41,233 bases of DNA from a virus. The stretch lies in the IMG/VR virus record IMGVR_UViG_2576861615_000004, positions 1 to 41,233 of that record. One strand, written 5' to 3'. Every line of letters starts with the position of its first letter. The stretch's first letter is position 1. This document shows, in pieces, positions 5,159-24,232 of this stretch. Under the pieces are notes generated by a model. That model did no database searches, had not been told where the DNA came from, and saw nothing but the letters and a program-made list of their open reading frames with translations. Both the position numbers and the translations under genes were made by a program.

Positions 5159-5911
5159 ATGGACGAACGAATCAAGCAGGCGATCGCGGAGCACGCGCTC
5201 GCCGAGTATCCGCGCGAGTGCTGCGGGCTGATCGTGGAAACCGCTTCGGGAGATTTGTATGTGCCCGGTCGAAATATCGCTGCGGCGCCGACGGAGCGAT
5301 TCGGGCTGGCGGCCGAGGATTACGCGGATGCGGAGGACATGGGCGAAATCCTTGCGATGGTGCATTCGCATCCGAACGGGACGGCGCAGCCGAGCATGGG
5401 TGATCGCGCGATGTGCGAGCGCGCCGGCATCCCGCTGTGGGTCATTGTCTCGCTGGGCGTCCAGGCCGACGGATCGATCGGCGTCGACAACTGGTGCGAG
5501 TTCGGGCCGAGCGGCTACGTCGCGCCGCTTTACGGTCGGGAATACGTGCACGGCGTGCTCGACTGCTACGCGCTGGTGCGTGATTGGTATCTCGCCGAAC
5601 GCGGGATCGCGCTGCCGGATTTCGAGCGCAAGGACGGGTGGTGGGCTGACGGGTATTCGAACCTGTATATCGCGAACTACCAGGACGCGGGCTTTCTCGA
5701 CATGGGGCGTGATGCGCAGCTCGAGCCGGGCGACGTGCTGCTGATGCAGGTCCGCAGCAAAAACGGCGTTCCGAATCATTCGGGCGTGTACCTCGGTGAT
5801 GGCATGTTCGCGCATCACATGTACGGACGACTGTCGTGTCGCGCGGTATGGGGCTCGATGTGGCGCGACTGCTGCACGACCGTACTGCGTCATGTCGGAG
5901 GCGCGAAGTGA
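5159..5911 (+). CDS. tail assembly protein, lambda gpK-like (JAB/MPN + NlpC/P60 domains)
   Basis: JAMM motif HSHPNGTAQPSMGD (HxHx7SxxD), followed by an NlpC/P60-like region (DCYALVRDWY ... H). The position after gpL fits. Confidence 0.9.
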   Translation: MDERIKQAIAEHALAEYPRECCGLIVETASGDLYVPGRNIAAAPTERFGLAAEDYADAEDMGEILAMVHSHPNGTAQPSMGDRAMCERAGIPLWVIVSLGVQADGSIGVDNWCEFGPSGYVAPLYGREYVHGVLDCYALVRDWYLAERGIALPDFERKDGWWADGYSNLYIANYQDAGFLDMGRDAQLEPGDVLLMQVRSKNGVPNHSGVYLGDGMFAHHMYGRLSCRAVWGSMWRDCCTTVLRHVGGAK

Positions 5912-6471
5912 CGGAGACGCTACGGGAGGTGAGGCTTTACGGGATCGCCGGCGCGCGGTTCGGTCGGGTTCATCGGCTGGCCGTCTCGTCGACCGCGGAG
6001 GCGGTGCGCGCGCTGTCAGTGCTGATTCCCGGCTTTCGGCAGTTTCTGCTCGACGCGCGCGACAACGGGCTGACGTTCGCCGTGTTCAACGGGCGCCGGA
6101 ACCTGACGGAAGACGATCTCGGCGCGCCGGTCGGCGGCGACGCGATCCGAATCGCGCCGGTGATCATCGGCAGCAAGAGCGGCGGTCTGTTCCAGACGAT
6201 TCTCGGCGCGGCGCTGGCCGTGGCCGGCTTCGTGTTCAGTCAGCCGACGCTGATCGGACTGGGCGTGTCGATGGCGCTCGGCGGCATCACGCAGATGCTG
6301 AGCCCGCAGCAGGCCGGGCTGGCCGGCGCGGCCGACAACGGCACCTCGTACTACTTCAACGGAGCGGTGAATAGCGCCGCGCAGGGCGAGCCGGTGCCAC
6401 TCGTGTACGGCGAGATGGTTGTCGGGTCGAAGGTCGTCAGCTCGGGCATCTACACGGAGGATCAGGTGTGA
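5908..6471 (+). CDS. tail assembly protein, lambda gpI-like
   Basis: GTG at 5908 overlaps the gpK-like stop (GTGA). The product VTETLREVRLYG... has a hydrophobic Gly/Ala-rich middle and ends VVGSKVVSSGIYTED, as in the gpI family. The track start at 5836 lies inside gpK. Confidence 0.85.
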   Translation: MTETLREVRLYGIAGARFGRVHRLAVSSTAEAVRALSVLIPGFRQFLLDARDNGLTFAVFNGRRNLTEDDLGAPVGGDAIRIAPVIIGSKSGGLFQTILGAALAVAGFVFSQPTLIGLGVSMALGGITQMLSPQQAGLAGAADNGTSYYFNGAVNSAAQGEPVPLVYGEMVVGSKVVSSGIYTEDQV

Positions 6472-9400
6472 AAAAGATCTACGCGGAATCCGGGCCGAAG
6501 CGGATCAGCGGGGCGAAGGGCGGTGGCGGTGGAAGTAGTGGCGGAGAATCGCCGGACAACTTGCATTCCATCGCGCGCGCGAAGGTGCTCGACGTCATTT
6601 CTGAGGGGCCGATCGTCGGCCTGGTGAAGGGCATGCAATCGGTTTTTCTTGATGGCACGCCCATCCAGAATTCCGACGGCTCGGTCAACTTCCAGAATTA
6701 CGGCGTCGACGTTCGCACGGGAACGCTCGATCAGGAATTCATTCCGGGCTTTCCGGCGGTCGAGCGCGAATCGGCCGTGGGTGTGCCGCTGACGTCCGAT
6801 GCGCCTTGGGTGCGTCAGGTGCAAAACACGCAGCTGACGGCGGTTCGCATTCGGTTCGGCGTGCCGGCGCTGCAGAAGAGCGATCCGGCGACCGGCGTGT
6901 TCGGCTATCGCGTCGAATATGCGATCGATCTGTCGGTCGACGGAGGCTCGTACGCACAGGTGCTGTCGTCGGCATTCGATGGCAAAACGACGTCGCTTTA
7001 CGAGCGCTCGCACCGGATCGAGTTGCCGCGCGCCACTACCGGCTGGTTGGTACGCGTCCGGCGCATCACGCCGAATGCGCACAGCTCGCTGATCGCTGAC
7101 ACGGTCAATATCGAAGCGATTACGGAGGTGATCGACCGCAAGCTTCGATACCCGCTGACGGCGCTCGTTGGCATGACATTCGATGCCCGGTCGTTCTCGC
7201 AGGTGCCGGTGCGTTCGTACGGCGTGCGCGGCTTGATTATCCGTGTGCCGTCGAACTATGACGCGGAGACGCGGACGTATTCGGGTGCATGGGATGGCAC
7301 GTTCAAGCCGTCGTGGACAAACAATCCGGCGTGGATTTTCTACGACGTCCTGTTGCAGACGCGATATGGCACTGGGCGCTATGTCGACGCGTCGATGGTA
7401 GACAAGTGGACGCTGTACGAAATCGCGCGATATTGCGACGTGATGGTTTCGGACGGCCGCGGCGGCGTTGAACCTCGTTTTACGTGCAACTGCGTGATCC
7501 AGTCTGATGCCGACGCTTTCAAGGTATTGCAGGATCTGGCGAGCGTGTTTCGCGGGATCGCGTACTGGGGTCCGGGAGCGGTGGTCGCGTCTGCGGACAT
7601 GCCGTCCGATCCCGTCTACGTCTACACCGCGGCGAACGTGATTGACGGGGCGTTCCGGTACGTCGGGAGCGAGCGCAAGACGCGATACACCGTCGCGCTT
7701 GTGAGCTACAACGATCCGTCGAACCAGTACAAACAGGCAGTCGAGTATGTGCCGGACGACGACGGCATCGCGCGTTATGGCGTCATCAAGACGCAGGTAA
7801 CGGCGTTCGGTTGCACGTCGCAGGCGCAGGCGCACCGGCTCGGGCGATGGCTTCTCCTGACGTCGCGCTACGAGTCGGGCACGGTGTCGTTCAAGGTCGG
7901 GATGGATGGCGTGCTGGTCGGCCCCGGGCAGGTGATCGCGATCGCCGATCCGCGAAAGGCTGGTCGTCGCATCGGCGGGCGCATCCGCGCGGTGGCCGGT
8001 AACGTCGTCACGCTCGACAAGGCGCCGACCGTGGCGCCCGGCGACCGCTTCACGGCGATTCTGCCGTCGGGCGTTGCGCAGTACCGTGCGGTGAAGTCCG
8101 TCGATGGCGACGTGCTGACGCTGGCTGATCGCTTCGATGCGGACCCGGTGTCCGGCGCGGTGTGGATGCTGGAGAACGCGGAGGTCGCGGCGCAGCTTTA
8201 TCGCGTCGTGAGCGTTCAGGAAGGCGACGACGATGGCCTGCTCGAGTACACGATCACGGCCACGATGCACGAGCCCGGGAAATACGCGGCGATCGACGAC
8301 GGCGCACAGATTCAGCAGCGGCCGGTGACGGTCGTGCCGCCATCGGTACAGGCGCCGCCGACCAATGTGCGCGTGACGTCGTACTCGGCCGTCGATCAGG
8401 GCATTTCCAAAACGACGATGGTGATCGCCTGGGACGCTGCGGATAACTCGGTGACGTACCTGCCGGAATGGCGGAAGGACAACGGCGAGTGGGTGAGTGT
8501 GCCGCGCACGGGCGGCCTGCAGGTCGAGGTGCCGGGGATTTATCAGGGGCGCTACGTTGCGCGCGTGCGCGCTCAGAACGTGATGGGCGTTACGTCGCTG
8601 CCGGCGATCAGCGCGGAAACGCAGCTGAAGGGTAAAACGACACCGCCGCCGGCCGTTGCATCGCTCAAGGCCGCCGGCATCGTGTTCGGGATCAATCTCG
8701 ATTGGGCGTTCCCGGGCGACGGTACGGCGGGCGATACGCAGCGCACCGAGCTCTGGTACAGCCGCACGCCGAGCCGCGACGACGCAATCAAACTGTCGGA
8801 CTACGCGTATCCGCAGGCGTCGACGTCGCTGCAGGGGCTCGCCGTCGGCCAGGTGTTTTATTTCTGGGCCCGGCTCGTCGATACGTCTGGAAACGTCGGG
8901 CCGTGGTATCCGGCATCCGGGCCGGGCGTGCAGGGACAGCCGACGACCGACGAAGGGGAATACGAGAAGTATTTCGCGGGGCGAATTTCGCACTCGGCGC
9001 TTGGCGAGGATCTGCGCAAGCCGATCGACGCGATTCCCGGCATTCAACAAGGCGTCGCGGATAACGCGAGCGCAATCGAAAAGGAGATACGCGACCGCGC
9101 GGACGCGATCGCGAAAGAGGCTCGGGATCGGGCGGACGCTGTGGCCGAAGAGGCGCGGCAGCGTGGCGCCGCGGTCACCGCCGAGCAGCAGGCTCGGCAG
9201 ACGGCCGACACCTCGCTCGGGCAGCGCATCGATACCGTGACGGCCAGCGTCGGCGACGCGGCGGCGGCCATCAAGCAAGAGGCGACCGCGCGCGCCGATG
9301 CCGACGGCGCGCTGTCGACGCGGATCGATACCGTCGTCAGCAAGGCGAACGACAACGCGGCGGCCATCTCGTCGGAGGTGACAGCGCGGACCACTGCGGA

Positions 9401-10370
9401 CACGGCGCTCGGAAAACGCGTCGACGCCGTAACGGCCGACGTCGGCGCAAACAAGGCGGCGATTACGGCCGAGCAAAAGGCGCGCGCCGACGGCGACGGT
9501 GCGCTGTCGAGTCGGATCGATACGGTATCGGCATCGGCCGGCGCTAACGCGGCGGCGATTGCAGCAGAGCAGAAGGCGCGTGCCGATGCGGATGGCGTGC
9601 TGGCGACGCAGATCAGCAAGGTGTCGGCGCAAATCAATGTACCGATGGCGGGCGACAGTGGACGCGCGGCGGGATCGACGCAGGTTAAGGCGGGCGTCTA
9701 TTCGGAGCAGTCCGCGCGTGCCGAAGCCGACATGGCGATCGCGCAGCGTATCGAAGCTGTTACCGCGCAGATGACTTCCGGGCAGGCGTCTCTATCAGCC
9801 GGGATTCAGGCGGAGTCGCAGGCGCGAGTGGATGCCGACAGTGCGCAGGCCGAGCAGATTACGACCGTGCGCGCGCAGGCAAACGCGAACGCTGCCGCGG
9901 TGCAGACGGTGGCGCAGTCGTACGCGGACCTGAACGGGCGTGTATCGGCGTCGTACCAGATCAAGACGCAGATCACGTCGGACGGTCGCACGTATATCGC
10001 CGGCATCGGCGTCGGCATCAACAACGACAGCGGCATTGTCGAGTCGCAGGTGTTGGTATCGGCGCAACGCTTCGCGGTGGTCGACCCAAACAACGGCGGC
10101 GCTTCGATCGTGCCGTTCGTGGTGCAGGGCGGGCAGGTGTTTCTTCGTCAGGCGCTCATCGGTTCGGGCTGGATCACGAACGCAATGATCGGCAGCTATA
10201 TCCAGTCCGACAACTACATTGCGGGTCGGCAGGGGTGGCGGCTCGACAAGATCGGTTGGTTCGAAATCAACGCTTCTGATGGCAGCGGAAATCGATTGGT
10301 GCTTGACGGGAGCAGTGTGCGTGTCTACGACGGCAACGGCGTGCTTCGCGTGCGCATGGGGATGTGGTGA
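6468..10370 (+). CDS. host specificity / central tail fibre protein, lambda gpJ-like (1300 aa)
   Basis: The GTG start overlaps the gpI stop. The N-terminal two-thirds are collinear with the gpJ family (NPAWIFYDVL, FTCN, fibronectin-III-like region). The C-terminal third is an Ala-rich coiled-coil repeat region plus a distal domain. Confidence 0.95.
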   Translation: MKKIYAESGPKRISGAKGGGGGSSGGESPDNLHSIARAKVLDVISEGPIVGLVKGMQSVFLDGTPIQNSDGSVNFQNYGVDVRTGTLDQEFIPGFPAVERESAVGVPLTSDAPWVRQVQNTQLTAVRIRFGVPALQKSDPATGVFGYRVEYAIDLSVDGGSYAQVLSSAFDGKTTSLYERSHRIELPRATTGWLVRVRRITPNAHSSLIADTVNIEAITEVIDRKLRYPLTALVGMTFDARSFSQVPVRSYGVRGLIIRVPSNYDAETRTYSGAWDGTFKPSWTNNPAWIFYDVLLQTRYGTGRYVDASMVDKWTLYEIARYCDVMVSDGRGGVEPRFTCNCVIQSDADAFKVLQDLASVFRGIAYWGPGAVVASADMPSDPVYVYTAANVIDGAFRYVGSERKTRYTVALVSYNDPSNQYKQAVEYVPDDDGIARYGVIKTQVTAFGCTSQAQAHRLGRWLLLTSRYESGTVSFKVGMDGVLVGPGQVIAIADPRKAGRRIGGRIRAVAGNVVTLDKAPTVAPGDRFTAILPSGVAQYRAVKSVDGDVLTLADRFDADPVSGAVWMLENAEVAAQLYRVVSVQEGDDDGLLEYTITATMHEPGKYAAIDDGAQIQQRPVTVVPPSVQAPPTNVRVTSYSAVDQGISKTTMVIAWDAADNSVTYLPEWRKDNGEWVSVPRTGGLQVEVPGIYQGRYVARVRAQNVMGVTSLPAISAETQLKGKTTPPPAVASLKAAGIVFGINLDWAFPGDGTAGDTQRTELWYSRTPSRDDAIKLSDYAYPQASTSLQGLAVGQVFYFWARLVDTSGNVGPWYPASGPGVQGQPTTDEGEYEKYFAGRISHSALGEDLRKPIDAIPGIQQGVADNASAIEKEIRDRADAIAKEARDRADAVAEEARQRGAAVTAEQQARQTADTSLGQRIDTVTASVGDAAAAIKQEATARADADGALSTRIDTVVSKANDNAAAISSEVTARTTADTALGKRVDAVTADVGANKAAITAEQKARADGDGALSSRIDTVSASAGANAAAIAAEQKARADADGVLATQISKVSAQINVPMAGDSGRAAGSTQVKAGVYSEQSARAEADMAIAQRIEAVTAQMTSGQASLSAGIQAESQARVDADSAQAEQITTVRAQANANAAAVQTVAQSYADLNGRVSASYQIKTQITSDGRTYIAGIGVGINNDSGIVESQVLVSAQRFAVVDPNNGGASIVPFVVQGGQVFLRQALIGSGWITNAMIGSYIQSDNYIAGRQGWRLDKIGWFEINASDGSGNRLVLDGSSVRVYDGNGVLRVRMGMW
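9225..9608 (+). repeat. four in-frame tandem 96-bp (32-aa) repeats within the gpJ-like gene
   Basis: Repeat units start at 9225, 9321, 9417 and 9513, each encoding R(I/V)D(T/A)V...N.AAI..E..AR..AD.AL. Degenerate copies flank the array on both sides, roughly 9050-9900. Confidence 0.85.
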
Positions 10371-16515: not shown

Positions 16516-18462
16516 TTATTGGTGTTCTCCTGCGCGGTCAAGCCGTTCGATCGCGGCTTGGATCAGCGCGCCCGCCTTCACGAGATTTCGACGATGCGTC
16601 GTCGGCTTCCACCAATCGGCGGCCCACGGCCATGCAGGCGGCGGATCGCCGGCAGGATACGCGAGCGTGTGCATCGCGTAGCAGCCTGCGGCGCAGGACA
16701 ATTCGTGATCGCGGTATTGGTCGTCATGTGCAGGCGTCCAGCCTTCCTGCTCGACCTGCCGGCGGCGTTCGGCGAGCACGTCGCGCGCCGCGTTCGTCAC
16801 CTCGGCGCGCGGTTCCGGCCGTTGGTTCGCCAGCTCTCGGAGAACCCTGTAAGCTTTCTTGACGCGGGGATCGGGTGAAAGGCCGATCAAGTCAAGCGCG
16901 GTTCCAATCGCCGCACGGTGCTCGACCGTCAACGCGTGGCGATCGTCTGCCTGTGCGGCGTTTTCGATCACCTCCAGCGCTTCTTCCCACGGGCAGTTCG
17001 CATTCGAATGCTCGCCGATGTCCGCACCGAAATGCTTGGCAACGGCTGCGGCCAGCTTGTCGGCCGTTTCGTGGTATTCGTCGCGCTCGCGCAGCGCTTG
17101 GTCCCACAGTTCGTCATCGGTCGGGCGAGCGTCTGCCTGCGCGGGCTGCGGGGCGGCGTAGAGCGGCACGATCTTGCCATCACCATGGGCATCAGACAGC
17201 CGCTGCGCAGCGCCCTTGTCGCGCACGATCGGAGCAAAGTCATTGCTGGCCGAGCACACATATGCCACCGCTTCCGCCGCCATAGCAGGCGAGCCGATGT
17301 ACGGCGATTTCGTGTCGAGTGCTTCGAGCAGTGCCTCGGTACGGTTCGTTGCCTCCTGCCAATACCACGATGCCGCCATCCCTTCGCCGGCGCTGTAATC
17401 CTCCAGCGCGGACTTGATCGCACCGCGCGCGAAGCTGAATAGATCGCGGCGGTCGAGCGTCACGTCGTTCGCCCCTTCCGCCCCCGTCTCGTTGGCAGGT
17501 GCGGCACGGGCGAACACCGGCACGCCAGTTTCGTCACACCTCGGCGACACGATCGCGCCGTTGCCTTCCGCCAGTTCCTTCAAATCGTCCGCACGGATAT
17601 AGCCGATGGGGGTAGCCGCTCGCTCGTCCGCCGGCACGCGCTCCGCCTCGGCCGGGATGGCAGTCGATCCGTCGACAAAGATCGCGCCTTCCTCGGGGTA
17701 CTCGGTGACCCAGCAGTACATGCCGTTGCCGGCGTGCCCTTCGCCGCGCTGGAACGTGAGTTCGCCTTCAAGCTGGTCGCGATCGCGATCCGGCGCAATG
17801 AAGTCGAGTGCTTCGATCAGCTGCGCACCGGTCAGGGTGAGCGAGTGGCCGCTGAAGTTGATCAGTTGCTCGCTCGGGTCGATTGCGCGCTCGGTAGGGG
17901 CTACTTCTTGCTGACCGTTTGTCACAATGGGTTCGAGCTGCGCGGAAGTTGCGGCGCTCCACTTTGGGAGTTCCTGCCAGCCGAGTACCTCGTCATCCGG
18001 GCCCAGAGTCGGCGTGAACAAGGTATTGAATTCCCCACTTGGGTCTTCGCCGATGTCGTACCAGCCGTCGGCGATGAATTCTTTGCCGTCTTGGTCGTGC
18101 AGGTCGTCGGCGTAGTTGTTCGCGTGGCTGGCGGCGAACACGAATACACGACGATCGTCATGTGCACGGCGAACTGCCACGATGTATTCGCGGTGTTCGC
18201 CATCCTTGGTCGGCGGGGTTCCAGTTTTCCAATGTGCACGAGCGTCGACCGTCGCAGTTTCGTGCTGCTCGACAGGGTATCCGCTGAATGCGTGCGCGAT
18301 GAACTCGGTCAGGATGAAACGATCATTGGCGTTCGGTTCGCGCGAATCGTTGTTATCGCCGACGATTTCGAACGTCTCGATTGCTGCGAGCGCAGCTTGC
18401 GCAGTGATGGGCGCAGGTTGTTCGGATGCGGACAAACTGGAATCTTGTGGTTGCGTAGTCAT
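16516..18462 (-). CDS. large acidic early protein (648 aa), mosaic, unknown function
   Basis: ATG at 18462 has a GGAG SD. The N-terminal part (AHWKTGTPP...VLGWQELPKW) resembles small W/PP-motif domains seen in lambdoid Ea22-region proteins. The C-terminal block (EGWTPAHDDQY...WPWAADWWKP...LVKAGALIQAAIERLDR) looks like a conserved phage module I cannot name with certainty. Confidence 0.8.
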   Translation of the reverse strand: MTTQPQDSSLSASEQPAPITAQAALAAIETFEIVGDNNDSREPNANDRFILTEFIAHAFSGYPVEQHETATVDARAHWKTGTPPTKDGEHREYIVAVRRAHDDRRVFVFAASHANNYADDLHDQDGKEFIADGWYDIGEDPSGEFNTLFTPTLGPDDEVLGWQELPKWSAATSAQLEPIVTNGQQEVAPTERAIDPSEQLINFSGHSLTLTGAQLIEALDFIAPDRDRDQLEGELTFQRGEGHAGNGMYCWVTEYPEEGAIFVDGSTAIPAEAERVPADERAATPIGYIRADDLKELAEGNGAIVSPRCDETGVPVFARAAPANETGAEGANDVTLDRRDLFSFARGAIKSALEDYSAGEGMAASWYWQEATNRTEALLEALDTKSPYIGSPAMAAEAVAYVCSASNDFAPIVRDKGAAQRLSDAHGDGKIVPLYAAPQPAQADARPTDDELWDQALRERDEYHETADKLAAAVAKHFGADIGEHSNANCPWEEALEVIENAAQADDRHALTVEHRAAIGTALDLIGLSPDPRVKKAYRVLRELANQRPEPRAEVTNAARDVLAERRRQVEQEGWTPAHDDQYRDHELSCAAGCYAMHTLAYPAGDPPPAWPWAADWWKPTTHRRNLVKAGALIQAAIERLDRAGEHQ

Positions 18463-18529
18463 AAAATCTCCAATGCTCAGTGCGGACGGCAGGCCGACGT
18501 GGTTGCTCCGCGGTATCCTTTTCGGCAGC

Positions 18530-18970
18530 CTAGAACGGCAGGTCCGGGTCATCGGTGGGTGGTACGGATACGGCGCGGCCCGGCTGTAGCCTCCGGCTGG
18601 CGCGCACGCGTATCCGAATCATGTCCTTGCCGGTCATGTCGCAGACGTCTAGAAGTTCGCGGAAGGCTTTATATCTGGCCTTGCTGCGCGTGCTGGCGGT
18701 CACCGTGAACCACGCTTCGTATTCGAACTCGTCGCGCCACGGGGCGAGGCAGCGCCACTCGCGCAACACTGGCGTGTCCACGATTTCCCCGTACTCGACC
18801 TGGTCAGTCGGGTGATAGAGGCGCTCCTCCTCGGACTTGTCTCCGTCGATAACGACGCAGAGATAGTGGCCGTCGGCATTCACGATCACGCCGCGTTCGC
18901 CGTAGCATTTCACCTGACGGCCGCGCTCGGCCGGCACGCCGTAGTGTTTGCGGATGTATTCGAAGCTCAC
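18530..18970 (-). CDS. hypothetical protein (146 aa), translationally coupled to the ThiF-like gene
   Basis: GTG at 18970 overlaps the ThiF-like stop (GTGA). The track ORF from 19075 is an extension overlapping ThiF. Confidence 0.65.
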   Translation of the reverse strand: MSFEYIRKHYGVPAERGRQVKCYGERGVIVNADGHYLCVVIDGDKSEEERLYHPTDQVEYGEIVDTPVLREWRCLAPWRDEFEYEAWFTVTASTRSKARYKAFRELLDVCDMTGKDMIRIRVRASRRLQPGRAVSVPPTDDPDLPF

Positions 18971-19728
18971 TGGTGGTTCTCCGTGCTCCGGACAGGCAGT
19001 GGCCGCACGTGGCCTGTCTTCAAGTTGACGAAGGCACCGCACCACGTCAGGCGCGCATGCCGGAAGAATTCCCACAGGATCGCGAGCCCCTGCGTGACGA
19101 CGGCCTGGTTGATGAACAATTCTTGCCGCTCGAGCGCCTCGGCGAGGCTGCAGCTTGGCGTGTCGTCCTCGGGAATCGACGTGTCGATCAGTTCGGGCAG
19201 TACGCTATACGGCCAGGGCAGCGGGGTGCTATCTGCGGTCGCCGTGTTTCCGGGCGCGTCGTGCGCCGCGCCGAAGATTACCTGGCCGTCGCTCGCGCGA
19301 TTTCCGAGATCCATCACATAGCTGCCCGCCTTATTCAATGCCGGCGCCAATTTCGCGCGAGCGGCCGCGCTGTCGACGCACATGACAACGAGGTCCGGCG
19401 CGCCGCGGATGATCGCGTCGGCGCCGGCATGCACCGGTCGACCGCACCAGTCGAGCCCGAAAAATGCGTTCAGGCGATGCACGAGCACGACGCTCTTTCG
19501 CTGCCCCACATCGGCCGGACTGAACATCTGCCTGCCGACGTTCGCGGCGCTCACGGTGTCGGCGTCGAACGTGGTAACGTGCAGGCCCGGGTGGCCGAGC
19601 TCGACGAGCGCGTGATTGAGGCGAGCCAGCCCTGTCAACATTTGCGACCCCGTGCCGCCGCAACCGATCAGTGCGACCGTCACTCGTTCATCGCTGAGAA
19701 AGCGGGCCGGCGTCGTGTGATGGGTCAT
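18967..19728 (-). CDS. ThiF/MoeB/E1-like adenylyltransferase (PRTRC-type ThiF family)
   Basis: Rossmann motif VALIGCGGTGSQ (GxGxxG, nt 19648-19665), DxD..SAANVGRQ, and VVMCVDSAAAR. The ATG at 19728 overlaps the upstream stop (ATGA). Confidence 0.85.
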   Translation of the reverse strand: MTHHTTPARFLSDERVTVALIGCGGTGSQMLTGLARLNHALVELGHPGLHVTTFDADTVSAANVGRQMFSPADVGQRKSVVLVHRLNAFFGLDWCGRPVHAGADAIIRGAPDLVVMCVDSAAARAKLAPALNKAGSYVMDLGNRASDGQVIFGAAHDAPGNTATADSTPLPWPYSVLPELIDTSIPEDDTPSCSLAEALERQELFINQAVVTQGLAILWEFFRHARLTWCGAFVNLKTGHVRPLPVRSTENHQ

Positions 19729-20105
19729 ACCGTCCTCCACCAAGGCGCACCGACGTCGCGCCCGATCAGCGCGGCGCATTCGGTGATCGCGCGGCGCGTC
19801 GCGCGCTCGCGCTCCGCCTGCTGCGCGCAGACGTCATGCTGCGCATCGATGTCGTCGTGCGTGAAGTGGCGGAACGCGCCCGCGCCGGCATGCGCGGTCA
19901 CGTAATCAGCGAAGTGCGTCACGTCGATTCGGGCCGCGCTCGACAACTCGAATGCGTCGGCGCGCGAGCCAATCGAATCGAACGCGCGCCAGTCGGCGGC
20001 TGCATGCGGTCGGACGTGGATTGCGGTGCAATCGCGGACCGTGTGACGCTTCGCTTCCCATCCCGCGGCCCGTGCCGCGAGTTCGAGCATGTCGAGTTGG
20101 TTCAC
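19725..20105 (-). CDS. hypothetical protein (LELAARAAGWE N-terminus; resembles small phage NinX/DUF2591-like proteins)
   Basis: GTG at 20105 overlaps the JAB gene stop (GTGA), and its own stop overlaps the ThiF ATG. The family assignment is a weak recollection only. Confidence 0.6.
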   Translation of the reverse strand: MNQLDMLELAARAAGWEAKRHTVRDCTAIHVRPHAAADWRAFDSIGSRADAFELSSAARIDVTHFADYVTAHAGAGAFRHFTHDDIDAQHDVCAQQAERERATRRAITECAALIGRDVGAPWWRTV

Positions 20106-20905
20106 GCGGCTTTCTCCGTCGACGGGAAAAACGCCTGTACCGGCACACGGAGCGTGATCATTTTGCCGAGCGCGCACAGGCGGAAAGCAACGCTCGGATT
20201 GGCCGTGCCAACGCCGCCGATCACGCCGGCGATCTTCACTTCGCCCGCGTCGTCGGCGTCGTCGGTGGCGCTGAAGAATGCCGGGTTGACGCCGTGGCTG
20301 TGCAGATCGATTGCGAGGCTCTCGTCGTCGGCGAGGAGCGGGCGATTAATGGTTATTGCGGTCGGCGTGGAGTTGGTCACTTCGACTTCGCGGTACACCA
20401 GTTCCTTGTTCGTCTCGTTCCAGACGATCCATGCGGCATGCTCGTTCGGCGCGGCGTTGGCCGCGTCGGTTGCGAACCGGCGGAGGTGCGGCTCGGCGGC
20501 GCTGATGCGTCCGAATGCGAATTCGATTTTCGCGTCGATCGAGCCGTACGGCGGACGCGGGCAAGCGCCTTCGATCGGGGCGATCGGCTGAATCAGGTGC
20601 AGCCACGGGCGGCGGATCTCGACGAACAGACCTTCGGCCGCGAGCAGGAATCGGTGACCGACGTCGAGCAGCGGCGAAAATTCGGCGTGGCGCGGCACGG
20701 TGGCGACCGGGGCGCTGTCGAACAGCGCTTCGTCCAGGCCGATGTTTGCGTCGCTGCTGGCGGCTGCGATCGGGCGCGACCGGCCGGCTTGCACCTCGGC
20801 CGCGACCCCTTCGCTGAAAATCTTGAGTGCATCGCCGAGAGAGCGCAGCGTGTCGGTCGTCGCTGCTTCGAACGTTGCTTTGATTTCTTCAATTTTGGTG
20901 GACAT
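20102..20905 (-). CDS. JAB/MPN (JAMM) metallopeptidase, PRTRC protein A-like
   Basis: HSHGVNPAFFSATD is an exact HxHx7SxxD JAMM motif (nt 20261-20302), with an upstream Glu (NEHAAW). A GGAG SD precedes the start. Confidence 0.85.
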   Translation of the reverse strand: MSTKIEEIKATFEAATTDTLRSLGDALKIFSEGVAAEVQAGRSRPIAAASSDANIGLDEALFDSAPVATVPRHAEFSPLLDVGHRFLLAAEGLFVEIRRPWLHLIQPIAPIEGACPRPPYGSIDAKIEFAFGRISAAEPHLRRFATDAANAAPNEHAAWIVWNETNKELVYREVEVTNSTPTAITINRPLLADDESLAIDLHSHGVNPAFFSATDDADDAGEVKIAGVIGGVGTANPSVAFRLCALGKMITLRVPVQAFFPSTEKAA

Positions 20906-20909
20906 GTGG

Positions 20910-21620
20910 TTAGCTCCGTTGCGTGAGGCGTTGAATTGCGGATTCGACGGTCAGGTCGACCGCGACCAGTCTTTCGGTGGGAAATTCGGCGCCGTCGAGC
21001 AGCTGGCGCCAGAGCGTGGAAATGCTGCCGCCCTGAATCAGTTTTGGGGCATTCGGGTGTGTGAAGCGGCTGCGAAAGAATTCCTCTTCGTAGCGCTCGA
21101 CGTCGGCCGCGTTCGGCTGCTTCGCGATTTCGACATTGCCGGTGCACACGGAACCGGTGGAATAGACGTTGTAGTACGGCGCCTGAAACAGGGCGGTCCC
21201 GCGTTGCGGCCGCGCATTCTCGGCAAGCGCGAACACGTGTCGGCGGTCCCCTTGGGCGATGAACAGCAATGCAGGTTGGTGCGCCGGGCCCGCGCGCGTG
21301 CCGAGCGGTTTGTCGGAGTTGAACCAGACGTGCCGCACGCATGCCGGCATCCACCACGCGACAACGCCGGAGCCAGCAAAGATCACGCGTTCGTGCACGT
21401 AGCCGTGTTGACCAGCGTGTTTCGCTGCTGCGGCAGTGAACGCCGCGAGTTGTCGCTCGGTTACGGGTTCACCTGCAAGCAATGTCGGCATGCCGTCGAC
21501 AACACGCGCTGCATGGCGCGTTACGTATACGCGCGTGCCGGTGCTGTTCCGATACAGCAGCAGGGCGGAATCGAGTTCGAGGTGCGATTCAGTATCGCAA
21601 TAGATATCGACGTCTTTCAT
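20910..21620 (-). CDS. prokaryotic E2-like protein, PRTRC protein B-like
   Basis: The 236-aa product has a conserved-looking YYNVYSTGSVCTGN, with candidate catalytic Cys159 at nt 21144-21146. Its position between the F-like and JAB genes matches PRTRC cassettes. The ATG overlaps the upstream stop (ATGA). Confidence 0.7.
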   Translation of the reverse strand: MKDVDIYCDTESHLELDSALLLYRNSTGTRVYVTRHAARVVDGMPTLLAGEPVTERQLAAFTAAAAKHAGQHGYVHERVIFAGSGVVAWWMPACVRHVWFNSDKPLGTRAGPAHQPALLFIAQGDRRHVFALAENARPQRGTALFQAPYYNVYSTGSVCTGNVEIAKQPNAADVERYEEEFFRSRFTHPNAPKLIQGGSISTLWRQLLDGAEFPTERLVAVDLTVESAIQRLTQRS

Positions 21621-22696
21621 GCATGCACCTGTATGCGTTGGGGCTCGGCCGGGCTGTCCGGCGACCGGAGCGCGATCACGTCCAGCAGGTGTTCGACTGC
21701 TAGGGCGAGTCGCGAGGTATTGCGCATCCGCGCGAACCAGTTGCCGACCGCTTTACCCGCGAGTGACAGGCTGACCGCGCACGCGGCCTCCAGCGCATCG
21801 CCTTGCATTTCGTGCTCGAGAAAGTCATCGATCACGCGGCCGGTTCCGTCGCCGTGGTCCCACAACAGGAACAGGGAAAAATCGATGCCCGGCCCGGCGT
21901 TCGAATCGAAGTGGTCGACGCGCGCAAATGGGCCGCCGTGCGCGATTACGCTGTAGATTTCGTCGCACGCGCTGACGGCAAGCGCCGCGATTTCGTCTTG
22001 TTCTGCTGCACGGTGTACGTCGAACGTATTCAACACCTGCTGCGGATTGACGAGCCAGTCTGGCGCGTCGCGAAAGAATTCCGTGCGACGGGGGATCGAA
22101 CACGCCTCGAAAAATTCCTCAGGAGTTGCCTCGTCGACGTCGTCGTAGTGCATGCGCAGCTCGGGTAGCGCCTCGATCTCGTTTGCATGCCCTTGCCAAT
22201 ACATGTAGCCGGCAATCGAGATCGTCTCGCTCGGCGTCAGCACGGACGGCAGGTAGTGCGCGCATGCTTCGTAAAGCACAGCGAGAACGGTCTGGCCGAG
22301 TCCGGGCATCACGCTTTCAAGGTGCGAAATGCTGCCGCGCAGGAATCGCGCTGGCGCGGTTCCTGCGCCTCCGTCGCTATGAATCGACACCCACACGCTG
22401 TTGTCGTCGCCGGTGCGGTAGTACGACGGGCCGCAAGAATCAGAGCTCAGGCGCAAGCTCCATTCGAAAATGGAGTGCGCGTCCGTGAGTTCTTGCCACG
22501 TGCGCGTCAGCGCGATCCGAGCTAGCTCGCGCTCGTTGCGGTGATCGTCAGCGAGTTGCGCATCTTCGATCGTCAGCATGTTTCCGCGCATCAGCGCGAG
22601 CGCAAGATTGTGCGAAAACTGGCCGCTATCACCGACGACGTACCGCGCTGGTACTTCGCCGACAATTCGCGGCAGGGTAAGAGCAGTCGATGTCAT
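21617..22696 (-). CDS. PRTRC protein F-like (359 aa, unknown biochemical function)
   Basis: Size and position between the Ubl and E2-like genes match PRTRC order. The ORF is coupled at both ends (ATGA overlaps). The assignment is by context and recollection only. Confidence 0.6.
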   Translation of the reverse strand: MTSTALTLPRIVGEVPARYVVGDSGQFSHNLALALMRGNMLTIEDAQLADDHRNERELARIALTRTWQELTDAHSIFEWSLRLSSDSCGPSYYRTGDDNSVWVSIHSDGGAGTAPARFLRGSISHLESVMPGLGQTVLAVLYEACAHYLPSVLTPSETISIAGYMYWQGHANEIEALPELRMHYDDVDEATPEEFFEACSIPRRTEFFRDAPDWLVNPQQVLNTFDVHRAAEQDEIAALAVSACDEIYSVIAHGGPFARVDHFDSNAGPGIDFSLFLLWDHGDGTGRVIDDFLEHEMQGDALEAACAVSLSLAGKAVGNWFARMRNTSRLALAVEHLLDVIALRSPDSPAEPQRIQVHA

Positions 22697-22878
22697 GGCA
22701 ATACCGGCATGTCGGCCGACGGGAGACGTAAGCGTGGCGACGAGCTATTGCAGCCAGCAGCAACGCGCGAAATGTGCACTGCGAGCGGGCTGTTGACGTG
22801 CTTCTTCGGTGCCGCCGCCGCTCGGCTATCGCTGAACGTGTTTTCGCGCAGGTGCTTTCGAAGTTCGCGGAGCGTCAT
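22693..22878 (-). CDS. small coupled ORF (61 aa) between the Ubl and F-like genes
   Basis: Its ATG overlaps the Ubl gene stop, and its stop overlaps the F-like ATG (ATGA at both ends). No family recognised. Confidence 0.5.
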   Translation of the reverse strand: MTLRELRKHLRENTFSDSRAAAAPKKHVNSPLAVHISRVAAGCNSSSPRLRLPSADMPVLP

Positions 22879-23357
22879 TTCGATTGCGGGCAGTAGCGCG
22901 CATGCAGCGCATTGATGAACGCGACTTCTTCGTCAAGCAGCGGGCACACGTGCGCACTGCTGAACCGGTCGAGTTCGGCGAGATACGCGCGGACGGGGTG
23001 CGGAACGATGCAGTCGACAGCGCGTATCTGGTCGAGCTTCCGGCGTGCGTCGTCGGAGTCAACCGGGTTCGCGATCGCGATACCCGCAACGTAGGTTCGT
23101 CCGTCGGCACTGGTGGACAGTTTGACCGTGTAGCTGCTGAGCGGCAGCGCGTAATTTCCTTTCGTGCCGACAGCGCGCCGGAACGTGTAGACGTTGCGGT
23201 TGCCTTTGATGACCGGTCCCTCAATTTCCGCGTTCGTGAGCTCCGGATAGGTCTGCGAATAGAAGTCGCGGATCTGCTGGAGCGTGAACGTCGGTGCAGG
23301 GTCGGCGAGCTTCGCGCCGTTGTACGAGAATTCGCGAGCGAGCGTTTCGATTTCCAT
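22875..23357 (-). CDS. ubiquitin-like beta-grasp protein (PRTRC protein C-like) fused to a 93-aa C-terminal extension
   Basis: The first 67 aa, MEIETLAREFSYNGAKLADPAPTFTLQQIRDFYSQTYPELTNAEIEGPVIKGNRNVYTFRRAVGTKG, match the short PRTRC-C type Ubl, which normally ends near ...GTKG. Here the frame continues for 93 more aa with Cys/His residues. A GGAGG SD precedes the start. Confidence 0.75.
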   Translation of the reverse strand: MEIETLAREFSYNGAKLADPAPTFTLQQIRDFYSQTYPELTNAEIEGPVIKGNRNVYTFRRAVGTKGNYALPLSSYTVKLSTSADGRTYVAGIAIANPVDSDDARRKLDQIRAVDCIVPHPVRAYLAELDRFSSAHVCPLLDEEVAFINALHARYCPQSK

Positions 23358-23371
23358 GTCGTTGCCTCCAA

Positions 23372-23920
23372 TCAGTACAGGTCGACGCCCGCGTCGGTCG
23401 ATTGCGGTTGCGCCGCGCTTGCAGGTTCGGCGGGCGCCGGCGTATCTGCGGCCGGCGTCTCGCCGCCGTCGCTCGGTTGGCCGGCATCGTCGATGCGCAT
23501 CTGGCGCGGGTCGGTCGCGCCGGCGTTTGCGCCGTCAGTCGAGGGCGGGTTGTTGGCGTCGTCGGCCTTCGCGGCCTTCGGTGGCCGGCCGCGACCGCGC
23601 TTCCCGGGTGTGCCGGCGGCGTCACTAGCGTTCGGCGCCGGAAGCGCGGGCGCCGCGTCGGGTTTGTTCGCGGCGGCGCACGCGCGCGCCTGGTCGAGCA
23701 GCGACAGTGCGCCGGGTTCGTACGCCTCGACCGCTGCTGCGAATTCGGCGTCGAGTTCTTGGGGTGTCGCTACCAGCGACAACGGCCAGAGTTCTTTCTT
23801 GCCTTTCGCGTTCGGCAGGGGTGTGACGTTGACGCGCAGGTTTTCGTCGCCTTCGGCCGTGATCAGGATGTTGATGCTCGTGGTGCGCGCGAGCTCGTGC
23901 AGTGACGTGAACAGGGACAT
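23372..23920 (-). CDS. PRTRC protein E-like (N-terminal conserved domain, AT-hook, acidic/Pro-Ala tail)
   Basis: MSLFTSLHELARTTSINILITAEGDENLRVNVTPLP...LVATPQELDAEF resembles PRTRC-E. An AT-hook (KRGRGRPPK) and a low-complexity C-terminus follow. Confidence 0.65.
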   Translation of the reverse strand: MSLFTSLHELARTTSINILITAEGDENLRVNVTPLPNAKGKKELWPLSLVATPQELDAEFAAAVEAYEPGALSLLDQARACAAANKPDAAPALPAPNASDAAGTPGKRGRGRPPKAAKADDANNPPSTDGANAGATDPRQMRIDDAGQPSDGGETPAADTPAPAEPASAAQPQSTDAGVDLY

Positions 23921-23941: not shown

Positions 23942-24232
23942 TCAGGCCGCGAGGCCGTCGTAATTGCGATCGGCGAAATCGTTATCGCCGGGATAGCGGT
24001 TCGAGCCGTCGGCTCGATGCCAGCAAAATAGGGAGCCGCGCCGGTGCGGGAACCAGTAACCGGCGCAGTCGCAACGCATGCGCGTCGTGTTGCGGCGGTT
24101 CATCCAGTTGTCGACGCGATATTTCCGGCGGTTGCACGTGCGGCACGCCGGTAGGCGCGTGTAGCGATCGGGATGGCGCCGCAGGCATCGGCGCGCGTCG
24201 CAGTGCGTGCAGCGGACGTGGCAACGCGGCAT
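23942..24232 (-). CDS. Cys/His-rich zinc-finger-like small protein (96 aa)
   Basis: Multiple CxxC pairs (CHVRCTHCDARRC, CRTC, CDCAGYWFPHRRGSLFC). It sits in the operon directly upstream of the Ubl cassette. Confidence 0.7.
   Translation of the reverse strand: MPRCHVRCTHCDARRCLRRHPDRYTRLPACRTCNRRKYRVDNWMNRRNTTRMRCDCAGYWFPHRRGSLFCWHRADGSNRYPGDNDFADRNYDGLAA

What the first reader, a model, noticed from the sequence alone, without database searches (positions are those of the whole stretch)
22875..23357. Ubl is made as a fusion: a 67-aa beta-grasp ending GTKG followed by a 93-aa Cys/His-containing extension
Stand-alone PRTRC-C type Ubls are roughly 65-75 aa and end close to the ...GTKG seen here at residues 64-67 (nt 23157-23168). 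In this phage the frame continues uninterrupted for 93 more residues: NYALPLSSYTVKLSTS...VDCIVPHPVRAYLAELDRFSSAHVCPLL...HARYCPQSK. One reading is that the adjacent JAB peptidase must process a pro-Ubl to expose Gly67 for adenylation, as with eukaryotic ubiquitin precursors. The other is that the extension is a covalently attached cargo or targeting domain. Either would be an unusual variant of the system.
Basis: partly seen in the sequence, partly recalled or inferred. Interest (0 to 1): 0.7.

Follow-up and report, generated by a model that had tools for sequence, protein, structure and literature searches.

The report
Ubiquitin-like precursor with swappable tail
A Burkholderia phage makes its small ubiquitin-like protein with a 93-residue tail that the neighbouring protease most likely clips off, and this arrangement is the rule rather than an oddity in phage-borne versions of this unstudied system.

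Summary
ORF 22875-23357 (minus strand, 160 aa) is a PRTRC-C/Prok_Ub beta-grasp (res 1-67, ending GTKG) followed in frame by 93 residues.

It is not an artefact. Independent assemblies keep the frame, GC3 is 76-78%, and dN/dS is 0.06 for the Ubl, 0.57 for linker plus hairpin and 0.18 for the helices.

It is not unusual either. Plasmid PRTRC-C proteins are 69-74 aa, but 80% of the 146 nearest cluster representatives carry tails of 11-313 aa. Every phage or prophage relative I examined has one.

The tails are hypervariable and modular. Some are a conserved ~61-aa module that is a separate ORF in this window (22693-22878). Others are PRTRC-F, or the C-terminal domain of the 678-aa neighbour. Poly-Ubl chains also exist.

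The residue after the Gly is Ala, Gly or Ser in 80% of tail families and never Pro. AlphaFold gives a floppy linker at G67.

Best reading (0.7): an obligatory pro-Ubl cut after Gly67 by the operon's JAB peptidase, as shown for Bub BubAB. This tail is a fast-evolving hairpin resembling the phage's own tail-fibre protein J, plus a three-helix module with no known fold. Its function is unknown. Verdict: a new variant of a known kind.

The parts
23157..23357 (-). Ubl (beta-grasp) domain, residues 1-67, ending RRAVGTKG. G64-G67 lies at 23157-23168.
   Evidence: TIGR03738 residues 3-67 and PF14454 residues 2-65. AlphaFold strands 7-12, 15-17, 44-51, 54-60 and helices 26-34, 38-42, pLDDT 83-86. dN/dS 0.06.
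23365..23369 (-). Shine-Dalgarno GGAGG, 7 nt upstream of the ATG.
   Evidence: Read directly from the sequence.
23136..23156 (-). Linker, residues 68-74 (NYALPLS). The inferred scissile bond is G67|N68.
   Evidence: pLDDT is below 50 for residues 63-74. Conservation stops at G67. The position after the Gly is Ala/Gly/Ser in 80% of 79 tail families and never Pro.
23055..23138 (-). Beta-hairpin insert, residues 74-101. It is fast-evolving and resembles the first hairpin of the Phage_Tail_Tip domain of the phage's own J protein. It is absent from the 127-137-aa relatives.
   Evidence: BLASTP against window J: 46% identity over 28 aa (relatives up to 67% over 24 aa). A hairpin HMM hits J at E 4.6e-7 in the six-frame window, with the next hit at E about 1. 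Sub-threshold PF09327 hits fall at profile positions 14-44 in the window protein and in 7 of 10 relatives tested. AlphaFold strands 76-82 and 88-95. dN/dS 0.57.
22878..23054 (-). Three-helix module, residues 102-160, with conserved ...Y-L...A-H-x-C-P-L-L-D-E-E...F..A-L-H-A-R-Y.
   Evidence: Tail-only AlphaFold model has pLDDT 86-94 over the helices. L126, A135, H136, L140, E144, A150 and L151 are invariant. dN/dS 0.18. Homologous to a second tail family (hhalign probability 93%, E 4e-7). No Foldseek or PDB match.
22693..22878 (-). Small ORF of 61 aa (the 'B module', ending RLRLPSADMPVLP), with ATGA overlaps to the Ubl-tail stop and to the PRTRC-F start. In relatives the same module is fused directly after GTKG.
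   Evidence: 36% identity over 61/61 aa to the tail of P0046, E 1e-11. A B-family HMM built without it hits it full length at E 3.4e-7. At least 21 of 22 related viral contigs keep it at 61 aa (60 in one); 19 of those have ATGA overlaps at both ends, one has GTGA at the PRTRC-F junction and in two the ORF starts 4 nt after the Ubl stop; one contig was miscalled by my script. It is annotated as a CDS in phage BgVeeders33.
23372..23920 (-). PRTRC system protein E.
   Evidence: TIGR03741, 68 bits.
21617..22696 (-). PRTRC system protein F (alpha-hel2). In P0142 it is fused directly to the Ubl.
   Evidence: TIGR03742, 117 bits. P0142 carries PRTRC_C plus full-length PRTRC_F.
20910..21620 (-). PRTRC-B, E2-like (Prok-E2_D).
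   Evidence: TIGR03737, 198 bits; PF14460.
20102..20905 (-). PRTRC-A, DUF2016 plus JAB/JAMM peptidase with motif HSHGVNPAFFSATD (HxHx7Sx2D). This is the inferred processing enzyme.
   Evidence: TIGR03735, 219 bits; PF14464. Motif read from the translation.
18967..19779 (-). PRTRC ThiF-family E1-like adenylyltransferase (GCGGTGS loop).
   Evidence: TIGR03736, 298 bits.
16528..16830 (-). C-terminal ~100-aa domain of the 678-aa ORF 16516-18552. The same domain forms the Ubl tail in seven other cluster representatives.
   Evidence: tblastn of those tails against the window, E 5e-9 to 6e-20. Domain HMM E 2e-39. Found at the C-terminus of several PHROG families.
9948..10031 (+). Segment of tail-tip protein J (ORF 6468-10370, residues 1161-1188) that the Ubl-tail hairpin resembles. 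It is the first hairpin after the predicted helical shaft.
   Evidence: Domain order of lambda gpJ taken from PMC11101478.

Best explanation
The ORF encodes an obligatory precursor of the PRTRC ubiquitin-like protein. Residues 1-67 are the beta-grasp Ubl with a flexible RRAVGTKG tail. Residues 68-160 are a separate domain made of a linker, a J-like beta-hairpin and a three-helix module.

Inferred steps: the operon's DUF2016-JAB metallopeptidase (PRTRC-A) cuts between Gly67 and Asn68. This frees the Gly67 carboxylate, which the ThiF-type E1 can then adenylate and pass to the E2-like PRTRC-B. The 93-residue tail is released as its own polypeptide in a 1:1 ratio with the Ubl.

Because the Ubl C-terminus is processed anyway, whatever lies downstream of the Gly can be fused in frame without harm. 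That would explain why, in the phage-borne clade, this position has become a swap site holding many unrelated modules.

Shown here: the anatomy, the family-wide pattern, the modularity and the selection on the tail. Inferred only: the cleavage itself, the enzyme that does it, and any role for the released tail.
For: 1. Family and operon. PRTRC_C domain at residues 3-67, with E, F, E2, JAB and E1 neighbours, all above curated cut-offs. The JAMM motif HxHx7Sx2D is intact.

2. Orthologues end at exactly this Gly. Among the 146 nearest cluster representatives, 24 end at the Gly and 5 carry 1-5-aa caps. All eight sampled plasmid genes end at G[AT]KG plus 0, 3 or 5 residues. Even these short caps would need trimming.

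3. Poly-Ubl relatives. P0077 has 5 repeats and P0160 has 4, each ending GTKG, with 3-5-aa spacers and a 1-5-aa C-terminal cap.

4. Tails are free-standing proteins elsewhere.
- The 61-aa B module is a separate ORF in this window but is fused right after GTKG in P0046-49, whose Ubl is 93% identical.
- P0142 is a Ubl fused to full-length PRTRC-F.
- Seven representatives fuse the Ubl to the C-terminal domain of the 678-aa neighbour.

5. Cleavage-site signature. Across 79 unrelated tail families, the first residue after the Gly is Ala, Gly or Ser in 80% (background 25%). Pro occurs 0 times at that position and once at the next. Composition returns to background from the third residue on.

6. Structure. 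AlphaFold gives two independent units, with pLDDT below 50 at residues 63-74 and pTM 0.36.

7. Mosaic evolution. The Ubl stays 84-100% identical (91% or more in all but two contigs) while tail type and the B/F/E2 allele block assort independently.

8. Precedent. The JAB domain of BubCD cuts the BubAB Ubl-E2 pre-protein immediately after its conserved Gly (PMC11601596). JAB processing of Ubls in E1/E2/JAB operons was predicted in 2006 (PMC1779556).
Against: There is no experimental evidence for cleavage in any PRTRC system; the literature I could search calls the cassette unstudied.

This window's own tail family (type A) was never found as a free-standing protein. Its helical module is under purifying selection (dN/dS 0.18). 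It could therefore act while still attached to the Ubl.

The first residue after the Gly here is Asn, not the commonest Ala, Gly or Ser.

The small-residue rule at that position could reflect a structural cap on the Ubl rather than protease specificity.
Confidence: 0.7

Rival explanations
1. The tail is never removed. The Ubl serves as a non-conjugatable N-terminal adaptor domain, as in eukaryotic Ubl-domain proteins. The 93-residue extension is then a covalently attached cargo or targeting domain that works in cis.
For: The helical module is conserved and under purifying selection. No free-standing copy of this tail family was found. The tail folds as an independent domain.
Against: Close relatives with 93%-identical Ubls lack this tail altogether and carry the B module instead. 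Tail-less and poly-Ubl orthologues exist. The GxKG end is invariant in both tailed and tail-less forms. The position after the Gly shows a small-residue/no-Pro bias. An E1, an E2 and a JAB are all retained, and they have no obvious use if the Gly carboxylate is never exposed.
Confidence: 0.15
2. The tail is a regulatory pro-domain or sensor. It keeps the Ubl inert until a signal permits JAB cleavage. The signal could be binding of the J-like hairpin to a trimeric tail-fibre protein, or binding of the conserved AHxCP surface to a partner. Tail hypervariability would then reflect an arms race.
For: There are 79 tail families, 63 of them singletons, among 177 tails. dN/dS is 0.57 in the hairpin against 0.06 in the Ubl. 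The hairpin reproducibly resembles the first hairpin of the Phage_Tail_Tip domain of protein J. [quoted passage not shown]
Against: The resident J hairpin is nearly constant while the tail hairpin varies, so there is no co-variation. Hairpin-less tails and B-only tails occur in prophages with the same J type. The similarity is short (22-28 aa) and below Pfam's cut-off. Nothing tested here bears on gating.
Confidence: 0.12
3. The extension is an artefact: a lost stop codon, a frameshift, or an assembly error joining two genes.
For: None found.
Against: The same 160-aa frame appears in independent ENA, Logan, NCBI and IMG/VR assemblies at 85-96% identity. Length variants differ by whole codons. 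In-frame GC3 is 76-78%, and the tail is under purifying selection.
Confidence: 0.01

Closest known systems
PRTRC system protein C (TIGR03738 / Pfam PF14454 Prok_Ub) of plasmid and ICE cassettes
   Same: The same Ubl domain, ending GxKG. The same neighbours: E, F, E2-like B, JAB-containing A and the ThiF E1.
   Different: Plasmid forms are 69-74 aa, with a 0-5-residue cap, a 43-325-nt gap before F (91-117 nt in five of the eight) and, in six of the eight, an adjacent ParB-family gene. The window protein carries a 93-aa domain after the Gly, followed by an extra 61-aa ORF. No ParB homologue is detected next to the cassette.
Type I Bub BubAB pre-protein (Ubl-E2 fusion cut by the JAB domain of BubCD)
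   Same: A bacterial Ubl translated as a fusion, with an operon-encoded JAB/JAMM peptidase. In Bub, cleavage is shown experimentally to occur immediately after the conserved Gly (PMC11601596).
   Different: PADLOC models detect no homology apart from weak E1 similarity. In Bub the partner is always the E2. Here the partner is variable: 79 tail families, including the B module, PRTRC-F and the 678-aa protein's C-terminal domain. Cleavage is untested for PRTRC.
Eukaryotic ubiquitin precursors: polyubiquitin with a C-terminal cap residue, and ubiquitin-ribosomal protein fusions (established knowledge, not tested here)
   Same: The family contains head-to-tail poly-Ubl chains with short caps (P0077, P0160). 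It also contains Ubl fusions to proteins that exist on their own elsewhere.
   Different: There is no sequence relationship beyond the beta-grasp fold. The partners are operon components or hypervariable domains, not ribosomal proteins. The processing enzyme would be a dedicated JAB peptidase.
Bil (bacterial ISG15-like) systems
   Same: Separate Ubl, E2, JAB and E1 genes. The JAB is reported to cleave pre-proteins. The reported target is a phage tail protein.
   Different: Architectural diversity in Bil and Bub Ubls is described as N-terminal (extra beta-grasp domains, coiled coils, DUF1508), not C-terminal. PRTRC proteins are not hit by the Bil models, apart from a weak BilD match to the E1. 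This cassette is carried by the phage itself.
Lambda tail-assembly pair gpI (Ubl-like) and gpK (JAB + NlpC/P60)
   Same: A phage-encoded Ubl plus JAB, with JAB-mediated release of the Ubl at its C-terminal Gly predicted (PMC1779556). The window also carries this pair at 5159-6471.
   Different: It is a different family, part of the tail module, with no E1 or E2.

Membership tests
PRTRC system protein C (TIGR03738 / PF14454 Prok_Ub) | Profile match above the curated cut-off | tested here: met
   TIGR03738: 106.1 bits against 45.95, covering profile positions 2-66 of 66. PF14454: 94 bits against 25.
PRTRC system protein C (TIGR03738 / PF14454 Prok_Ub) | Beta-grasp fold with a flexible C-terminal stretch ending in Gly | tested here: met
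   The AlphaFold secondary-structure order is beta-beta-alpha-alpha-beta-beta over residues 7-60 (pLDDT 83-86), followed by RRAVGTKG. G64, K66 and G67 are invariant. Foldseek gave only weak PB1/beta-grasp hits, so fold assignment rests on the profile match and the model.
PRTRC cassette (ParB-Related, ThiF-Related Cassette) | Neighbouring PRTRC-E, F, B (E2), A (JAB) and ThiF genes | tested here: met
   All five exceed NCBIfam cut-offs and lie in the canonical order E-C-F-B-A-ThiF.
PRTRC cassette (ParB-Related, ThiF-Related Cassette) | Adjacent PRTRC ParB-family protein | tested here: not met
   Flanking ORFs 23942-24232, 18530-19075 and 16516-18552 have no ParB hit in Pfam or NCBIfam. The relative L002 has an HTH_ParB gene in that slot, and six of the eight plasmid cassettes have a ParB gene upstream of E. 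This is therefore a ParB-less, phage-type variant.
PRTRC system protein C, canonical stand-alone form | Protein ends at, or within 5 residues of, the GxKG motif | tested here: not met
   93 residues follow G67. The plasmid forms have 0-5.
JAB-processed pre-Ubl (as in Bub BubAB or Bil pre-BilA) | Extra polypeptide after the conserved Gly, plus a JAB/JAMM peptidase with an intact active-site motif in the operon | tested here: met
   (HSHGVNPAFFSATD in PRTRC-A).
JAB-processed pre-Ubl (as in Bub BubAB or Bil pre-BilA) | Demonstrated endoproteolytic cleavage immediately after the Gly | not testable with these tools
   Only indirect support is available: tail-less and poly-Ubl orthologues, the small-residue/no-Pro bias after the Gly, and the disordered linker.
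Bil / Bub / CBASS Cap2 defence systems | Component proteins match the systems' models | tested here: not met
   PADLOC gives no hit for the Ubl, E, F, E2 or JAB proteins. There are only weak E1 hits (E 4e-8 to 6e-3).
   Only H136 (invariant) and C138 (at least 90%) are conserved. C116, H120, H153 and C157 vary.
Phage_Tail_Tip domain (PF09327) of J-type tail-tip proteins | Profile match above the gathering score over the domain | tested here: not met
   Only positions 19-40 of the 139-position profile match, at 18.9 bits against 22. This is a short J-like hairpin, not the whole domain.

The most novel reading that the evidence does not exclude
In phage-borne PRTRC cassettes the position after the Ubl's Gly may be a dedicated diversification site. 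Its hypervariable tails would act as specificity or sensor modules. In this phage, the J-like beta-hairpin would let the pro-Ubl dock onto the trimeric beta-prism of a central tail fibre, either its own or that of a superinfecting relative. That docking would couple JAB processing and Ubl conjugation to tail-tip assembly. The result would be a phage-encoded counterpart of Bil-type tail-protein ubiquitination, used for superinfection exclusion or virion modification. The conserved 61-aa B module would be a seventh core component acting with PRTRC-F and the E2.
Probability: 0.07. Interest if true: 0.85.

Novelty: new variant of a known kind. Interest (0 to 1): 0.5.

Why it matters
The papers that I could search call the PRTRC cassette functionally unstudied. 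It is widespread on conjugative plasmids, integrative elements and, as shown here, a family of Burkholderia and Ralstonia temperate phages.

Recognising that the phage-type Ubl is made as a precursor gives a simple first biochemical handle: a JAB-dependent cleavage assay. It also defines the mature 67-residue Ubl that should be used in E1/E2 assays.

The analysis adds an unannotated conserved 61-aa component to the cassette. It links the 678-aa neighbour to the system by a gene-fusion ('Rosetta stone') argument.

It extends the pre-Ubl principle, shown so far for Bub and reported for Bil, to a third and much more variable family. That family also includes bacterial or phage poly-Ubl chains.

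For genome annotation, the practical point is that 'PRTRC system protein C' entries of 120-380 aa are two-part proteins.

Tried and rejected
- **Fold search.** Foldseek against the PDB found nothing significant for the whole model or the tail-only model (best E 0.3 and 0.9). A UBA-like or other known three-helix fold could therefore not be supported.
- **Sequence search of solved structures.** The family profile and the 678-aa protein gave no hits.
- **Zinc finger.** Rejected on conservation.
- **Free-standing copy of this tail.** The word-indexed search with the tail alone returned only Ubl fusions. A local HMM search of the loci I held found the module only inside Ubl ORFs.
- **Species-level census in genome contigs.** I sampled plasmids instead. 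The 80% figure comes from 50%-identity cluster representatives. Because diverse tails split into more clusters, that figure over-counts tailed forms.
- **Recent transfer from the J gene.** There is no DNA-level similarity.
- **Co-variation of the tail hairpin with the resident J hairpin.** None: J is nearly constant across 14 paired viral contigs plus the window.
- **Membership of known defence systems.** No PADLOC hits.
- **B module in plasmid cassettes.** The C-F gap is 43-117 nt in six of the eight sampled plasmid cassettes, too short for a 60-aa module. The 325-nt gap in the Deinococcus plasmid holds a candidate ORF ending PSDLPLLL, but the B-family HMM did not detect it.
Full report
**Observation**

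The ORF lies on the minus strand. Its ATG is at 23357 and its TGA at 22877-22875, giving 160 aa, with a GGAGG Shine-Dalgarno 7 nt upstream.

NCBIfam TIGR03738 (PRTRC system protein C) covers residues 3-67 at 106 bits against a cut-off of 46. Pfam Prok_Ub covers residues 2-65. No family reaches its cut-off on residues 68-160.

The gene sits in a complete minus-strand cassette. In order it contains PRTRC-E (23372-23920), this gene, a 61-aa ORF (22693-22878), PRTRC-F, the E2-like PRTRC-B, PRTRC-A (DUF2016 plus a JAB with an intact HxHx7Sx2D motif), a 150-aa ORF and the ThiF-type E1.

The window itself is a lambda-like siphovirus or prophage. It carries a tape-measure gene, L, K (JAB + NlpC/P60), I, a 1300-aa J protein and an integrase. 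Its closest relatives are ~40-kb Burkholderia viral contigs and phage BgVeeders33.

**Not an artefact**

- Proteins 85-96% identical from independent assemblies, and six IMG/VR contigs, keep the same 160-aa frame.
- GC3 is 76-78% in frame throughout the ORF.
- dN/dS among the 160-aa forms is 0.06 for the Ubl, 0.57 for linker plus hairpin, and 0.18 for the helical module.

**Where homologues end**

Eight of eight PRTRC-C genes, sampled across the ranking of 103 PLSDB records, are 69-74 aa. They come from Cupriavidus, Burkholderia, Polaromonas, Pseudomonas, Deinococcus and Parabacteroides. All end at G[AT]KG plus nothing, SHA/AHA, or AHAQI/AYAQI.

The premise does not hold for this protein's own clade.

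- All 67 hits in the 5.8-billion-protein search carry extra sequence after RRAVGTKG.
- In the exhaustive search of 1.84 billion cluster representatives with the 67-aa Ubl alone, 1011 proteins score E <= 0.001.
- Of the 146 usable among the best 150, 24 end at the Gly, 5 have 1-5-residue caps, and 117 (80%) have tails of 11-313 aa.
- That percentage over-counts tailed forms, because diverse tails split into more clusters.
- Every phage or prophage context I examined is tailed. These are BgVeeders33, Ralstonia phages Dina and YO105_4, 22 IMG/VR contigs whose Ubl gene is complete, and loci L002, L007 and L008.

So the fusion is real, but it is the norm for phage-type cassettes.

**Anatomy of the tail**

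AlphaFold with a 51-sequence alignment gives a beta-grasp over residues 7-60. pLDDT is below 50 over residues 63-74. A beta-hairpin follows (76-95), then three helices (99-113, 120-135, 142-155). The pTM of 0.36 indicates no fixed packing between the two halves.

The tail-only model is better (pLDDT 79, helices 86-94). It has no significant Foldseek or PDB match.

The helical module is conserved from Burkholderia to Paraburkholderia and Caballeronia. L126, A135, H136, L140, E144, A150 and L151 are invariant, and C138 is at least 90% conserved. It is homologous to a second tail family found in Massilia and others (hhalign probability 93%, E 4e-7). The Cys/His pattern is too poorly conserved for a zinc site.

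The hairpin is an insert present only in the 155-167-aa forms. It evolves fast and resembles residues 1161-1188 of the phage's own J protein.

- SYTVKLSTSADGRTYVAGIAI aligns with SYQIKTQITSDGRTYIAGIGV, at 46% identity over 28 aa. Relatives reach 67% over 24 aa.
- An HMM built from the tail hairpins finds J at E 4.6e-7 in the six-frame window, with the next hit at E about 1.
- Pfam Phage_Tail_Tip gives sub-threshold hits at profile positions 14-44 in the window protein and in 7 of 10 relatives tested.
- By the domain order described for lambda gpJ (helical shaft, then beta-sheet prism, then receptor-binding domain; PMC11101478), this would be the first hairpin of the prism. That placement is inferred.
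- There is no DNA-level similarity, and no co-variation with the resident J, which is nearly constant.

**Tails across the family are modular**

The 177 tails fall into 79 groups by BLAST, 63 of them singletons. Four patterns are informative.

1. *The B module.* About a quarter of the tails are 55-76 aa and end in P[ST]xxx(L/V)P(L/V)LP or PSxAFGLWG. The window's 61-aa ORF 22693-22878 belongs to this family.
   - It is 36% identical over its full length to the tail of P0046 (E 1e-11).
   - A profile built without it hits it at E 3.4e-7.
   - P0046's Ubl is 93% identical to ours. In its prophage the Ubl-B fusion runs straight into PRTRC-F, with no separate small ORF.
   - At least 21 of 22 related viral contigs with type-A tails keep the separate small ORF at 61 aa (60 in one), nearly always with ATGA overlaps; one contig was miscalled by my script.
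   - L007 and BgVeeders33 likewise have a stand-alone B module after a tailed Ubl.
2. *PRTRC-F.* P0142 is a Ubl fused to full-length PRTRC-F.
3. *The 678-aa neighbour.* Seven representatives fuse the Ubl to a ~100-aa domain. The same domain forms the C-terminus of the window's 678-aa ORF 16516-18552. It also appears in neighbouring genes in L002 and BgVeeders33.
4. *Poly-Ubl.* P0077 and P0160 are head-to-tail chains of 5 and 4 repeats, each ending GTKG, with short spacers and a 1-5-residue cap.

**Cleavage-site signature**

I weighted the 79 tail families equally. The residue after the Gly is Ala in 49%, Gly in 16% and Ser in 15%, against 25% expected from tail composition. Pro occurs 0 times at that position and once at the next. 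From the third position on, composition matches background. Conservation of the domain stops exactly at G67.

**Mosaic evolution**

Across 24 related loci, the identities of B, F and E2 co-vary (Spearman 0.79, 0.71 and 0.72). They fall into deeply diverged allele classes: B 36-43%, F 42-46% and E2 57-60% identity to the window for the most diverged class, with intermediate classes as well. The Ubl stays 84-100% identical (91% or more in all but two contigs) and is uncorrelated with B (0.03). Tail type, with or without the hairpin, occurs with either allele class. The tail is therefore an independently assorting module between a very conserved Ubl and a B-F-E2 block.

**Mechanism**

The best-supported reading is an obligatory pro-Ubl. 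PRTRC-A's JAB would cut between G67 and N68, exposing the carboxylate that the E1 needs. The tail would be released.

The direct precedent is Type I Bub. There, the JAB domain of BubCD cuts the BubAB Ubl-E2 pre-protein immediately after the conserved Gly (PMC11601596). JAB processing was predicted for E1/E2/JAB operons in 2006 (PMC1779556).

The cleavage itself, the enzyme responsible and the role of the released tail are inferences. No PRTRC biochemistry exists in the papers I could search.

The non-cleaved cargo reading is not excluded, because this tail family was never seen free-standing. It is disfavoured by the comparative pattern. A gated or sensor role for the tail is possible but untested.

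**Comparison and novelty**

The protein is a member of the PRTRC-C family, in a ParB-less, phage-type cassette. It fails the 'stand-alone 65-75 aa' feature of the canonical form. It works like Bub, Bil or eukaryotic ubiquitin precursors, but it is not a member of those systems (PADLOC).

Published surveys of Bil and Bub Ubl architecture describe N-terminal diversity, not C-terminal tails. I found no description of PRTRC-C tails, of the B module, or of poly-PRTRC-C proteins.

Verdict: a new variant of a known kind, of moderate interest.

Noticed in passing
window 22693-22878 (-): A 61-aa ORF with ATGA overlaps to both neighbours, ending RLRLPSADMPVLP. It is a conserved and so far unnamed PRTRC component. 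In different phages it is either free-standing or fused directly to the Ubl's Gly. Its sequence co-varies with PRTRC-F and the E2, not with the Ubl.
   Followed up: yes
window 23055-23138 (-) versus 9948-10031 (+): The hairpin insert in the Ubl tail resembles the first hairpin of the Phage_Tail_Tip domain of the phage's own J protein (motif DGRTY[IV]AGI). The match is at protein level only, and the tail hairpin does not co-vary with J.
   Followed up: partly
window 16516-18552 (-), especially 16528-16830: A 678-aa ORF (phrog_6628, no Pfam or NCBIfam family). Its C-terminal ~100-aa domain (ER.RQ..EGW...HDD...GEL..AA.CYA...WPW...LVKAGALIAAEIDRL) is the Ubl tail in seven other PRTRC-C representatives. 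It also ends several otherwise unrelated PHROG families. Its function is unknown.
   Followed up: partly
window 5159-6471 (+): The phage carries a second, unrelated Ubl/JAB pair: lambda-type tail-assembly proteins K (Prok-JAB + NlpC/P60) and I (Lambda_tail_I).
   Followed up: no
window 23942-24232 (-): A 96-aa Cys/His-rich ORF (MPRCHVRCTHCDARRC...; phrog_17384) just upstream of PRTRC-E. It is 94% identical in the B. stagnalis prophage L002. It may be a zinc-ribbon protein linked to the cassette.
   Followed up: no
window 19725-20177 (-): An ORF (phrog_5086) wedged between the JAB and ThiF genes and overlapping both. It is conserved as a 126-aa gene in L002 (66% identity). The true start is probably downstream of the listed GTG.
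   Followed up: no
window 16516-19075 (-) versus L002 10117-11797: The slot after ThiF differs between relatives. L002 has an HTH_ParB protein plus small ORFs. The window has a 181-aa ORF (phrog_16342) and the 678-aa ORF, with no ParB homologue detected.
   Followed up: partly
P0077 (locus L006 6001-6876) and P0160: Head-to-tail poly-Ubl proteins of the PRTRC-C family (5 and 4 repeats, each ending GTKG, with short caps). P0077 lies on a 229-kb contig with a ThiF gene about 6 kb downstream.
   Followed up: partly
L118 1704-2029 (Deinococcus gobiensis plasmid P3); L112, L113, L114 and L116 C-F gaps: Unannotated small ORFs lie between PRTRC-C and F on plasmids. One is a ~77-aa candidate ending PLEPSDLPLLL in Deinococcus. 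Another is a ~39-aa ORF (MRKSDLMKALS...) overlapping the Ubl 3' end in the Cupriavidus and Burkholderia plasmids. Neither was detected by the B-family HMM.
   Followed up: partly
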